DNA of 64,000 nt, from contig NC_059430.1 in NCBI RefSeq assembly GCF_021028975.2, forward strand, positions 44,206,001 through 44,270,000. Direction: 5' to 3'. How positions within the stretch are numbered: position 1 is the first letter of the stretch; each line of letters opens with the position of its first letter. Below the pieces are notes generated by a model. That model worked only from the letters and a program-made list of their open reading frames with translations. It was not told the DNA's origin and made no database searches. This document shows positions 1-13,400 of the stretch, one piece after another. A program made the position numbers and the translations under genes. This DNA comes from Sphaerodactylus townsendi (Eukaryota).

Positions 1-240
1 TTCGCCACCACGGTCCTAGTTGTACTCATCTAAAGACAATTAAAACATATGGGATACCTGACACTACATTTTCAGAAAGTAACTGGTTACCAGTAGTGAA
101 GTTGCAATGTTCTTTCTAGCAGGGATCTTGCACTTTGAACAGTTCACACAACATGCTGAAATGCAATATATGCTACATTTCTTTGCATGGGAATACAAAC
201 TTGAAAGGTGCTTCAGATGTTCAATTTCTGCTGGAATTGT

Positions 241-505
241 ATTGTCAAAGGCTTTCACGGCCGGATTCAGCTGGTTCTGGTGGGTTTCCCAGACTGTGTG
301 GCCATGGTCTGGTGGATCTTGTTCCTAATGTTTCGCCTGCATCTGTGGCTGGCATCTTCTGAGGTGTATCACAGAGGGACACAGTGTGTAACAGTCTTCC
401 CTCTGTGATACACCTCTGAAGATGCCAGCCAAAGATGCAGGCGAAACATTAGGAACAAGATTCCCCAGACCACGGCCACCCAGCCCGGAAAACCCACCAG
501 AACCA
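241..505. mobile_element. Palindromic Penelope-like (PLE) derived insert with inverted minimal hammerhead motifs
   Basis: Arms 273-378 and 399-504 are reverse complements; CTGAAGA-t-GCC...GGC-GAAA-CATT-AGG at 416-453; flanked by a near-duplicated tctg(c)tggaatt. Confidence 0.75.
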
Positions 506-1906: not shown

Positions 1907-3190
1907 CAGAGGCGTAGCTACAATGGGGACATCCCGGGAACAAATGTCCCACCATTGGGACGCAGAAAAATTTGGGCTCATTTCTATGGGGGGGGGGGTA
2001 TTTTTAGTGTTTTTACTTGGTCAGCCAGCAATAGGCGCAGTTTTTAGGCTAGCGGCACCAAAATTTCAGGCTATTGTCAGGTGACACTCCTGATTATACC
2101 AGCCAAGTTTTGTGAAGTTTGGTTCAGGGGTCTAAAGTTATGGACCCCCAAAAGGGGTGCCCCATCCCCCATTGTTTCCAATGGGAGCTAATGGTAGATG
2201 GGGCTACCTTTTTGAGGGTCCATAACTTTGGAACCCCTGAACCAAACTTCACTAAACCTGGACGGTTTCATCAGGAGAGTCTACTGAAGATAGCCTAAAA
2301 TTTTGGTACTGTTAAACATTGCTCCCCTGGCATGCACCCTCAAATTTTTCCCAGGTTCTCTCTTTAAATTCACCCCGTTTTAAGGGACAATCTGGGCTCC
2401 CTAGTTAAAAAAAAACACCATTTAAAGTATTGTTGAAGGCTTTCACAACCAGATTCAACTGGTTTCCCAGGTTCTCTCTTTAAATTCACCCCATTTTAAG
2501 GGAGAATCTGGGCTCCCTAGTTAAAAAAAAACACCATTTAAAGTATTGTTGAAAACTGTCACAACCAGATTCAACTGGTTGTTGTGGGTTTTACAGGCTG
2601 TGTGGCCGTGGTTTGGTAGATCTTGTTCCTAACGTTTTGCCTGCATCTGTGCCTGGCATCTTCAGAGGTGTATCACAGAGAGAAGTCTGGACACAGTGTA
2701 TAACAGACTTCTCTCTGTGATACACTCTGAAGATACCAGCCACAGATTCAGGTGAAACATTAGGAACAAGATCTACCAGACCATGGCCACGCAGCCCAGA
2801 AAACCCACAACAACCAATTGAAAATGATGCTGTTTGGTGGGTGGGTGTGGAATCTACCTTGAAACAGCATCACTTTCAATGTTGTTTAAACTAGGGAGCC
2901 CAGAGTCTCCCTTTAAGGCAGATTTAAAAGGAGAATCTGGGCTCCCTATCTAAACAACATTAATAATGATGCTGTTTCATGGTGGATTCCCCCCCCCCTT
3001 CAAAAATAGCATCACTTTCAATGTTGTTTAAACTAGGGAGCCCTGGGTGTGTTCAAATTTGTGTATTGGGGCATGTTCTATAATGTGATGGTGACTTTGA
3101 GATGACCTGGTGCAAAAAATGTTGTTTGGTCGTGGTGCGGGAGGGTGGCCGCCCATATAGGATGGGGGGCACAAATTTCCCTAGCTCCAT
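1907..3190. mobile_element. Non-autonomous hAT-like DNA element with internal inverted repeats
   Basis: Starts CAGAGGCGTAGCT (same end as the TSD-bearing element at 18094); internal sequence shared with 6746-7433. Confidence 0.55.
2544..2816. mobile_element. Second palindromic PLE-derived insert, nested in a hAT-like element
   Basis: Highly similar to 241-505; arms from 2577 to 2815. Confidence 0.75.
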
Positions 3191-10423: not shown

Positions 10424-13400
10424 AAATTTGCTGAGGAAAGCAACCAGGGGTGGTTTGGCCTCTGTACTCCTGCTATGGTCTTTAGGAGTATTTGACTGGT
10501 TTTGTCTGTTAAGTGCGTCAGATTGTTTCCGACTCATGGCTATCCTATGAATCAGTGTCCTCCAAAACGTCCTATTATTAATAGCCTTGCTGAGGTCTGG
10601 AAAACTGAGAGCCCTGACTTCCTTTATAGAGTCAATCCATCCCATGTCGGGTTTCTCTTTTCCTGATGCCTTCAGCTATTCCTAGCATTGGCCCCTTCCG
10701 CATGGGCCAATAAACCTGGGCTAACCATGGGATAAAACCCATGTTGGGGAGGAACTTCACACGGATCCTGCTCCTAATGCTAATGCACTCCACTCCCCGC
10801 CCCCCCCCCCGGGTCATAATGCAGATTGCAGCTGCTTGCTGAGTGAAAAGGTTTTTTAAGGTCCTCCCTGTGCAACTACGCAGCATGGGAGGTGAGTTGT
10901 TTTTTTAAAGACACACCTCTGTGCGAAGGCATGACAGCAGCCCGCATTGCTTCCATGGGCTCCAGTCGCCTGCAAGGAGGCATGCGAACAGGATAGGAGG
11001 GAGAGCAGATTCCTTTATCCCACCTGCAACCCTCTCTCCCGGTGCTGTGCAGAAAGGGTCGTTGCCTTTTTGAGTGAGTTTTGCCTTCTCATAATGTGAT
11101 CAAAGTATGATAGCCTCAGTTTAGTCAGCTTCTAGGGACAGTTTAGGCTTGATTTGATCAGGTTGACCACTGGACTAGATGAATCTTTGAACTCAACCCA
11201 AAGCACTCTTCTTAAATTATTATGACAACGTAGGGTTAGTTTATGTGTTCGAAGATTTAAACTGCATTGGTTTAGCCTGGAGTAAGAATTGCATTGGTTT
11301 AGCCTGGAAGTTCCCTCAAGAAGGATCTGATTTCTTCTAAACTTAAATGATGGAGTATATATCCTGTCTGATTTGGGCCATCAGTTATCTTCCATTTTTA
11401 TGTCACTAATTTTTCAATAGTATAATAAACCAAGAATCTTTATGCAGAACTGAAAAGGCTTGAGGTAGTCTTGTGATTTATACAATGTGTGTAGCCAGGC
11501 TTAACATTTATTTGAATGTAAATCTATATAATAAATAAATTGATAATATCTTAAAACAAGATAATCATATAAAAAGGAATAATGTTTTTTCCACTAAAAA
11601 TGGACATGTAACCGATTAGACTGGTATAGGACTCTGGCACTCCAGGATATGGATCATACTCCCCATCAGCCCCCTGCCAGCATGGTCAATTAGCCATGCT
11701 GGCAGGGGCTGATGGGAATTGTAGTCCATAACATCTGGAGTGCCAAAGGTTCGCCACCACTGCACTAGGAAGTATGCCAACTAGTTTGTTAGGCAACCTT
11801 GCATTATTCAGATAGGAGGTATAGGAGGCCATAGTTATTACCTTTCTCTGTCTCAGACCTTGGGCAGCTGCTGCCAATTACAGAAGACAATATTGAGCCA
11901 GTTAAACCAATAGTCTCACAACATTAGTCATCTTCAGATGTTCATAGAGACTCAAATATGCAGTTCATAGGGACTTAAATAATGTACAGTCCTCAGTGGT
12001 CTGCTGTCCATCAGATTATAGCATATTGGTCTAGTTTGTAAGGCGACAATACGCTATGTTTGAATTACCTTCATGTACTTTTAGGATGCTGTATTAAATG
12101 GACATAATGATTTTTTTGACCTACCTGTAATAATTTTTGCTATATTGGCAAATTAAAATATCAAAATTGAGTTTGATATCATATGGGCATCCTCTTTTGT
12201 GATAACTCTCTTCCTCCTTGTTATATTTGTGTTGTAGTATCATGGGAACTGTAAGTAAAATTTAAGAATTGTATTGTTTTAAAATCATAGCGGACATTGT
12301 CATTGGTCCACAATGTCTGTATTTGGTTCCATTATCTTTGCTTTCAGTTTTCGAACAATGCAAGTGAACTTACTTTCTATTTTGTTTTGCTTTATTTCAG
12401 GATGAGGATCCCTTTGACCCATGTTTAACAGAAGAGCTTGAACAGTGTGCATTTTTAACAGGTCTATATATTTTTGTTCCTTGCAGTAATCATGAACTGC
12501 AGGGGATATAAGCAAGTCTAATTTGCATGTCGCTGGAACATGCCAAAGTCCATTTTCTGTTCTTCATGGTACTTTATATCCCAGGAACTGGTTTACCTCC
12601 TCAGAAAGTTACATTCAGCATCATGCATGAGGATATCATACCATCAAAATGAATAGTGGAACTTTCTTTTTGTTGCATCGTATCAGTATACAAACTAGTG
12701 CAAACAATTGCTTTGTTCAGACATCTGCCTAGCATTGGTTTGAGATGAGCAAAACCACTCTCTGCAGATAATGTGTAGCTCTAGCCCTGACAAATACTTG
12801 TCTGAATTGCCCTAAAAGAGCTTATCAAAATGAAGAAAGATTAATTCAATCAAAAATCAAGCTTTTGAAAACAAATTCTGCATTTGCTTTGTTAGCATAA
12901 CTTTGTTGCCTTCAGGCAGGTTTAAATATTACTCTGGCATATTGGACAAACTGGTTGTGGTGGGTTTTCCAGGCTGTGGCCGTGGTTGAATCCGGTTGTG
13001 AAAGCCTTCGGCAATATATAGAATAGAATAGAATAGAATCTTTATTGGCCAAGTGTGATTGGACACAAGAATTTGTCTCCTCGTATATGCTCCTCAATGT
13101 ACATAAAAGAAAAATACATTTGTCAAGAACGCTAGTACAACACTTAATGATTGGTCATATAGATCTAATACAATCAGGAAGTTCAATAGTAACGAAACCA
13201 TAAAATGTAAATTATAAAATAAAATGAAATAAAATGAAATGAAATGTCAAAGCACAGGCTAAGTAGTCATACAGCTGCATAAATGGGAGGAGGATGGGTA
13301 ATAGGGAATGATGAAAAAAGTGTGCAGTAATTATATAATAAATGGCACAAATAGTTTAACATTATCGAGGAAATTATTTGTTTAACAGAGTGATGGCATC

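What the first reader, a model, noticed from the sequence alone, without database searches (positions are those of the whole stretch)
241..505. Palindromic Penelope-derived insert with back-to-back minimal hammerhead ribozyme motifs, just upstream of the AGBL3 promoter
Seen: a ~230-bp inverted repeat. The + arm reads cct-CTGAAGA-t-GCC(13 nt)GGC-GAAA-CATT-agg (413-453), and the - arm carries the same motif with CAGAAGA in the core. The flanks resemble a ~13-bp TSD. Established: Penelope-like elements encode minimal type-I hammerheads (CUGANGA...GAAA, palindromic stem III) that are thought to cleave as dimers. Inference: this is a non-autonomous, retrozyme-like unit with a ribozyme motif on each strand. 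Its transcript would be a long hairpin (dsRNA or small-RNA source). The stem III here (ACAT instead of ACGT) looks like CpG decay, so this copy may be inactive.
Basis: partly seen in the sequence, partly recalled or inferred. Interest (0 to 1): 0.7.

Follow-up and report, generated by a model that had tools for sequence, protein, structure and literature searches.

The report
Head-to-head Penelope retrotransposon stub
This 268-base mirror-image insert is one of many hundreds of short head-to-head stubs of a known kind of reptile jumping gene (Penelope/Poseidon), likely made when both strands of a DNA cut were copied from the element's RNA, and its two self-cutting RNA motifs carry mutations and are predicted to be locked in a hairpin, so it is likely an inert relic rather than a self-copying ribozyme element.

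Summary
The inverted repeat (272-379/398-505, 92%), both minimal hammerhead motifs and a target-site duplication (11-12 bp, one indel) are real. The insert runs 238-505 and is asymmetric: the left arm has a 34-nt Penelope 'tail'. The arms are the pseudo-LTR/ORF start of a Poseidon-type Penelope element; longer copies in this genome carry RT and GIY-YIG. At least 848 back-to-back copies exist. It is not a retrozyme: the copies are inverted, not tandem; 50 copies show 44 different central joints; and this copy's own joint occurs with the tail on either side. Nearly every palindrome pairs one arm ending at +118 with one ending at +84 (39 of 40), matching the two reverse-transcription start sites published for anole PAc. 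Best reading: each stub is a separate dead-end product of priming from both strands of the cut. The family consensus hammerhead is intact; here both stem-III CpGs have decayed, one core has U4A, and both motifs are predicted to be buried in the hairpin. Inverted pLTRs, one-sided tails and these hammerheads are in print, and this scan already reported the family and this reading on other DNA of this genome. Ordinary; low score.

The parts
227..238 (+). Left copy of the target-site duplication (last T shared with the element end)
   Evidence: Sequence; matches 507-517 with one extra base. TSDs found in 31 of 39 family palindromes against 6 of 1482 mismatched flank pairs
238..271 (-). 34-nt Penelope 'tail', element positions +118 to +85 (A of the ORF ATG = +1); unpaired in the hairpin
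   Evidence: homologous to the PAc RNA shown in supplement 1 of PMC11167929; contig loose ends at 238
272..379 (-). Left arm: element +84 to -24; with the tail it encodes the first 39 codons of the Poseidon ORF (one stop in this copy)
   Evidence: 8 differences in 142 nt from the family consensus
324..364 (-). Minimal type-I hammerhead motif of the left arm; core change U4A (360) and stem-III G>A (329)
377..379 (.). 3-nt microhomology (GGA) joining the two arms head to head
   Evidence: Read against the upstream template seen; same joint at 23 places
377..505 (+). Right arm: element -45 to +84, no tail; ATG at 422; lacks the element's TATA/Inr promoter
   Evidence: 6 differences in 129 nt from the consensus; contig loose ends at 377 and 505
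413..453 (+). Minimal type-I hammerhead motif of the right arm; core intact, stem-III G>A at 448; predicted cut after 450 (26 nt after the ATG codon, as in PAc)
   Evidence: PMC11167929
507..517 (+). Right copy of the target-site duplication
   Evidence: Sequence
2543..2822 (.). Second palindromic copy of the same family (tailed left arm, tail-less right arm)
12948..13018 (.). Third, miniature copy: tail-less arm on the - strand joined to a tail on the + strand

Best explanation
The insert is a head-to-head pair of short 5'-truncated pieces of a Poseidon-type Penelope retroelement, likely made in one insertion event in which both strands of a staggered cut primed reverse transcription, and its two hammerhead motifs are predicted to be inactive passengers. 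Steps: (1) shown: each arm is the pseudo-LTR plus ORF start of an RT + GIY-YIG element present in this genome. (2) Shown as a pattern: one arm ends at +118 (tail) and the other at +84, flanked by a TSD. (3) Inferred: these ends are the two internal RT start sites measured for anole PAc, one used from each nicked strand. (4) Inferred, weaker: the cDNAs are short because many template RNAs begin at the pLTR promoter (TATA at -77, Inr-like TCACT, A at -48), so the enzyme runs off near -47. (5) Inferred: the two cDNA ends are joined by short microhomology or filler bases, so each palindrome is made anew and is not copied as a unit. (6) Predicted: a transcript from either strand makes the antisense arm first and folds into a 108-bp hairpin that excludes the hammerhead fold; CpG decay has also removed the dimer stem III.
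For: Identity: arms run upstream into GIY-YIG (PF01541, E 2e-6, L217) and RT (PF00078, E 3.3e-9, L225); L341 and L345 share 2,761 nt from the tail through the ORF to the pLTR; in a sister subfamily the tail continues in frame into the ORF in 4 of 30 loci. ATG-to-cut spacing (26 nt), tail end (+118) and tail length (34) match PAc. End rule: of the first 50 of 848 back-to-back places, 39 pair a tailed with a tail-less arm, 1 has two tail-less arms, 0 have two tails, 10 have an interrupted arm (39 of 40, p 4e-11 against 0.5). In 67 loci anchored on one intact hammerhead, 44 have a head-to-head partner and 36 of 39 classifiable pairs are mixed (the sets overlap in part). Independent priming: 7 of 30 long copies carry an inverted pLTR arm at the 5' end, always of the opposite type, joined far inside the ORF (e.g. 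L215 -986 to -53). PAc nicks and extends both strands in vitro and is predicted to be a dimer. Joints: 44 types in 50; 15 of the 23 without filler overlap by >=2 nt, against 22% in simulated blunt joins. Arms of one copy share non-CpG variants (80 against 27.6 +/- 4.0 in 2000 shuffles, 79 pairs), so they come from the same source. 5' ends: 18 of 28 arms that reach -45 stop between -45 and -51, 10 of them at -47. Folding: all six hammerhead stem I/II pairs have probability 0.0 in the whole insert on both strands; the stem-III self-duplex is -4.1 kcal/mol for the consensus and +2.8 for this copy.
Against: No biochemical test was run; the mechanism is read from genomic ends and from one in-vitro study of a relative. 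23 of 67 anchored arms show no adjacent partner, and 3 of 39 pairs there are of one type. 27 of 50 joints have extra or unresolved bases rather than clean microhomology. 17 of 67 arms run past -53, so not all templates start at -48, and BLAST over-extends across a native quasi-palindrome at -43..-33, which inflates the pile-up there. Three long copies (L221, L237, L238) carry inverted pieces that do not fit the simple scheme. Shared alleles cannot tell one RNA from two RNAs of one source, nor from later gene conversion. No full-length copy with an intact ORF was found among the loci examined. PAc self-cleavage needs the protein, so folding models may miss assisted states.
Confidence: 0.8

Rival explanations
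1. Fold-back or self-priming: one cDNA (or an antisense template) snaps back and copies itself, giving the palindrome, as proposed for inverted pLTRs of rotifer Penelope elements.
For: Published proposal (PMC3846280, passages); arms of one copy share alleles; the region -43..-12 has a native imperfect hairpin.
Against: Snap-back copies the sequence next to the joint, but in 7 of 30 long copies the inverted arm is pLTR sequence joined 200-1,300 nt inside the ORF. Either arm type can be the longer one. It does not by itself explain the +118/+84 rule.
Confidence: 0.1
2. The palindrome is a non-autonomous, retrozyme-like unit that is transcribed, self-cleaved and re-inserted whole.
For: High copy number (848 places); intact consensus hammerhead; TSDs; this copy's joint recurs at 23 places; animal retrozymes derive from Penelope pLTRs (bioRxiv 10.64898/2026.07.22.740005, abstract to methods).
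Against: The arrangement is inverted, not head-to-tail; 44 joint types in 50 copies; among the 23 copies with this joint the tail is on the short side in 12, on the long side in 7, on both in 1 and unclear in 3, with at least three allele sets; hammerhead pairs have probability 0.0 in the hairpin.
Confidence: 0.04
3. This copy has been co-opted: it acts on the neighbouring carboxypeptidase (AGBL3) promoter or yields dsRNA or small RNA from upstream antisense or read-through transcripts.
For: It ends about 100-300 nt before the CpG-rich stretch; any transcript through it would be a 108-bp hairpin.
Against: It has drifted like its siblings (6 of 129 and 8 of 142 differences); it lacks the element's TATA/Inr; three family copies lie in this 64-kb window, so closeness to a promoter is expected by chance.
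Confidence: 0.05

Closest known systems
PAc / Poseidon_Ac, Penelope-Poseidon clade element of Anolis carolinensis (Frangieh et al. 2024, PMC11167929; first two of four parts of the text, term search, supplements 1 and 2 as text; the GenBank file S1 and figure images could not be read)
   Same: ORF starts at hammerhead stem II; cut 26 nt after the start codon; homologous tail; RT start near +118 and a second start one tail-length upstream; RT plus C-terminal GIY-YIG.
   Different: A diverged subfamily with a GUU rather than GUC triplet (a sister subfamily here keeps GUC). The term search of that paper found no mention of palindromic or inverted insertions or TSDs.
Inverted-pLTR insertions of EN+ Penelope-like elements (Arkhipova et al. 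2013, PMC3846280; Craig et al. 2021, PMC8557442; Schostak et al. 2008, PMC2377424; passages only)
   Same: Head-to-head inverted 5'-truncated copy, 30-40-bp tail at one end only, TSD around the whole unit, TATA plus TCACT Inr in the pLTR.
   Different: Here both halves are truncated to about 110-165 nt so no ORF body remains; the papers explain the layout by self-priming or endonuclease resolution, not by two start sites used from two strands.
Minimal hammerheads of metazoan Penelope-like elements (Cervera and De la Pena 2014, PMC4209133; first two of four parts)
   Same: Minimal type-I core, extra base before stem II, palindromic 15.2-16.2, low activity, dimer model; that paper notes pairs 100-700 bp apart on opposite strands in Schistosoma and similar motifs in reptiles.
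   Different: This copy has lost the palindromic stem III on both arms and one core base on one arm.
Non-LTR retrozymes (PMC7229834, passages; bioRxiv 10.64898/2026.07.22.740005, abstract to methods and passages)
   Same: Protein-free, type-I hammerhead, derived from Penelope pLTR sequence.
   Different: Retrozymes are head-to-tail repeats with hammerheads on one strand that release monomers and circles; this is an inverted pair that cannot do so as predicted.
L1 twin priming (recalled, no paper read)
   Same: Both strands of the cut prime cDNA, giving an inversion joined by microhomology inside a TSD.
   Different: In L1 the two cDNAs cover non-overlapping parts of one RNA; here they cover the same 5' region from two fixed start sites.

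Membership tests
EN+ Penelope-like element, Penelope/Poseidon clade (truncated copy) | Sequence continuous with an ORF bearing RT and C-terminal GIY-YIG | tested here: met
EN+ Penelope-like element, Penelope/Poseidon clade (truncated copy) | pLTR holds a hammerhead overlapping the ORF start | tested here: met
   ATG at 422 begins stem II; same layout as PAc
EN+ Penelope-like element, Penelope/Poseidon clade (truncated copy) | 30-40-bp tail at one end, inverted 5'-truncated partner, TSD | tested here: met
   34-nt tail 238-271; 39 of 40 palindromes one-tailed; TSD in 31 of 39
EN+ Penelope-like element, Penelope/Poseidon clade (truncated copy) | RT phylogeny places it in Penelope/Poseidon | not tested
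   No tree built; the clade is assigned from homology of the 5' RNA to PAc and the domain order
Minimal type-I hammerhead ribozyme | Intact CUGANGA, GAAA and NUH core with stems I and II | tested here: met
   Met by the consensus and the + arm; the - arm of this copy has U4A. No Rfam model matches
Minimal type-I hammerhead ribozyme | Self-complementary stem III for dimer formation | tested here: not met
   Met by the consensus (-4.1 kcal/mol) but not by either arm of this copy (+2.8)
Minimal type-I hammerhead ribozyme | Self-cleavage | not testable with these tools
   PAc homologue cleaves only with its protein (PMC11167929)
Non-LTR retrozyme | Head-to-tail repeats with at least two hammerheads on the same strand | tested here: not met
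   One motif per strand, head to head
Non-LTR retrozyme | Propagates as a defined unit | tested here: not met
   44 joint types in 50 copies; own joint with either tail side
Non-LTR retrozyme | Expressed as unit-length linear and circular RNA | not testable with these tools
   No RNA run was available

The most novel reading that the evidence does not exclude
The strict pairing of one tailed (+118) with one tail-less (+84) end is the in-vivo footprint of an asymmetric, two-ended integration step: a dimeric Penelope protein primes each strand of the cut from a different fixed site on the RNA, and RNAs that start at the pLTR promoter yield only short run-off cDNAs that join into palindromes. This would explain inverted pLTRs, one-sided tails and the flood of short stubs with one rule and replace the self-priming model. 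I did not find it stated in the papers read, but most subscription papers, including Arkhipova 2006, were not searchable, and other agents of this scan reached it before.
Probability: 0.6. Interest if true: 0.5.

Novelty: new member of a known kind. Interest (0 to 1): 0.22.

Why it matters
The locus itself likely does nothing. The family matters modestly: Penelope integration is still poorly understood, and hundreds of dated two-ended products give a sharp, testable prediction for the existing PAc in-vitro system (which strand uses which start site). It also warns annotators that 'two hammerheads on opposite strands' in reptile genomes are likely insertion by-products, not retrozymes or viroid-like RNAs.

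Tried and rejected
Rfam: no hammerhead family on 1-1500 or 400-475 at E<=10; only sub-threshold microRNA hairpin models. Expression: no RNA holder listed for 520-1900, so nothing can be said either way. Presence in a second organism: run X4 has contigs that enter the element by 23-24 letters from each flank, under the 31-letter rule, so not counted. A native template hairpin as source of this copy's joint: rejected, the template upstream reads differently and the joint is a 3-nt microhomology. Selection on the hammerhead core in inserted copies: 10 of 680 against 150 of 5287 non-CpG changes, inconclusive because source variation and sampling bias enter; half of 68 arms have lost core or stem III. 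The deletion -303..-185 in some copies as a spliced intron: ends are not GT-AG. The joint script mis-sliced the focal copy, and the TSD script missed its gapped TSD; both were read by eye. Pfam found nothing for L223, although the homologous L217 frame hit GIY-YIG. Lunse et al. 2017 on dimeric PLE hammerheads (recalled) was not held. The upstream PDE6 gamma gene as the 'lost' PDE6I: not supported, only one exon-1 match in this genome; orthology not tested.

Full report
Observation. The inverted repeat is real: arms 272-379 and 398-505, 92% complementary, folding at -209.4 kcal/mol with z -27. The loose core pattern has 25 matches in the window and Rfam has no matching hammerhead model, so the motif is supported by context, not by pattern. 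The insert spans 238-505; 238-271 is an unpaired extension. The TSD is 227-238 against 507-517 with a one-base gap (read). The insert ends shortly before a CpG-rich stretch; a cytosolic carboxypeptidase exon and TMEM140 follow, which fits AGBL3 by recalled synteny.

Family. The genome (G000, 1.81 Gb) holds 2,758 exact matches to a 20-mer of the arm, 2,791 to the intact 41-nt hammerhead, 15,715 to a tail 18-mer shared by two subfamilies and 848 back-to-back hammerhead pairs; all are lower bounds for diverged copies. Two more copies lie in this window. Upstream of the arm, longer copies carry GIY-YIG and RT. L341 and L345 share 2,761 nt from the tail through the ORF to the pLTR, and in the sister subfamily the tail reads on in frame in 4 of 30 loci. 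The left arm plus tail translates as the first 39 codons of that ORF. The arms are therefore the pseudo-LTR and ORF start of a Penelope-like element.

Match to PAc. In anole PAc the ORF starts at stem II, the cut lies 26 nt after the start codon, reverse transcription starts 111-118 nt into the ORF and at a second site, the tail is the stretch between the two, both target strands are nicked and extended, and the ribozyme cleaves only with protein and is not needed for insertion in vitro (PMC11167929). Here the spacing is the same, the tail ends at +118 and is 34 nt long, and its sequence is homologous to the RNA in supplement 1.

End rule. Among the first 50 of the 848 back-to-back places, 39 pair a tailed arm with a tail-less arm ending near +84, 1 has two tail-less arms, none has two tails and 10 have an interrupted arm. 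TSDs were found in 31 of those 39, against 6 of 1482 mismatched pairs; apparent length 8-18 nt including overlap with the element ends. In 67 loci anchored on one intact hammerhead (27 of the first 30 loci after dropping 3 duplicates, plus 40 further listed places; 4 places already held were skipped), 44 have a head-to-head partner, 36 of 39 classifiable pairs are mixed, and 23 show no partner. Of 30 long copies, 7 show an inverted pLTR arm at the 5' end, each of the opposite type and joined deep in the ORF; 3 show other inverted pieces; the rest show none within the fetched flank. L341 adds an eighth. This is hard to get by snap-back and natural if each strand of the cut primes separately.

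Not a self-copying unit. The 50 joints fall into 44 types; 23 have no filler and 15 of these overlap by 2 nt or more, against 22% in simulated blunt joins; 27 have extra or unresolved bases. This copy's joint (GGA shared at 377-379) occurs at 23 places, with the tail on the short side in 12, the long side in 7, both in 1 and unclear in 3, and with at least three allele sets. The two arms of a copy share non-CpG variants far more than shuffled pairs (80 against 27.6 +/- 4.0; 79 pairs), so both come from one source element or one RNA.

Why so short. The template has ATTGG at -106, TATATA at -77 and TCACT at -50, the same TATA-TCACT layout noted for a rotifer pLTR (PMC3846280). Of 28 arms chosen for reaching -45, 18 stop between -45 and -51, 10 at -47. 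I infer run-off at a transcription start near -48, at about even odds to 0.65: 17 of 67 arms run past -53, and no RNA data were available. This copy starts at -45 and -24 and so carries no element promoter.

The ribozymes. The consensus has an intact core with a GUU triplet and palindromic stem III. Stem-III positions mutate at 17-22%, like other CpGs, confirming CpG decay; 6 of 79 pairs share the change on both arms, as here. In the whole insert every stem I and II pair has probability 0.0 on both strands, against about 0.8 for stem II in a lone arm; the stem-III duplex goes from -4.1 to +2.8 kcal/mol. In a head-to-head layout the antisense arm is always transcribed first. Inactivity is predicted, not shown.

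Comparison. Inverted 5'-truncated partners, a tail at one end only and TSDs are described for Penelope-like elements (PMC3846280, PMC8557442, PMC2377424; passages). Minimal hammerheads, including pairs on opposite strands, are in PMC4209133. Retrozymes are defined by tandem units, which this is not. Linking the one-tail rule to the two PAc start sites was not found in my searches, which cover only the held library; figure images and file S1 of PMC11167929 could not be read. Earlier notes of this scan give the same family and reading at other places of this genome and in other lizard genomes; I had reached my reading before seeing them, and they are not independent support. Those notes call the host a gecko; I did not check that.

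Verdict. Observation confirmed, interpretation partly supported. New member of a known kind; interest 0.22.

Noticed in passing
L346:1935-3503 (G000:C1 about 4,702,430-4,704,000; also L097): Head-to-tail array of about 14 units of about 109 nt (element -21 to +87) of the same family, with the hammerhead on one strand; the first units are intact, later ones rich in small indels (possibly read noise). This, unlike the finding, has a retrozyme-like layout.
   Followed up: partly
L211:945-4520 (ends about 5.5 kb upstream of the window): A PDE6 gamma subunit gene (PF04868, E 1.4e-16) lies next to the carboxypeptidase gene; its first exon has one match in the genome. Likely cone PDE6H; orthology untested.
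   Followed up: partly
L063, L085, L090, L315, L338 and many tail-anchored loci: A sister subfamily, about 75-83% identical, with a GUC triplet and closer to the PAc RNA; its palindromes seem to follow the same one-tail rule.
   Followed up: partly
L111, L114, L251: Copies share a deletion of element positions -303 to -185 without GT-AG ends, suggesting a deleted source lineage.
   Followed up: partly
window 2427-2464 and 2543-2822: The second family copy sits inside another repeat and its tail end is duplicated about 115 nt upstream as part of a local duplication.
   Followed up: no
L211:3122-3404: A further, more diverged tailed/tail-less palindrome of the family lies in an intron of the PDE6 gamma gene.
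   Followed up: no
flanks of 39 palindromes: The base just outside the tail end is A in 22 of 39 (hand count), in line with the AT preference reported for PAc and with pairing to the RNA just beyond +118.
   Followed up: no
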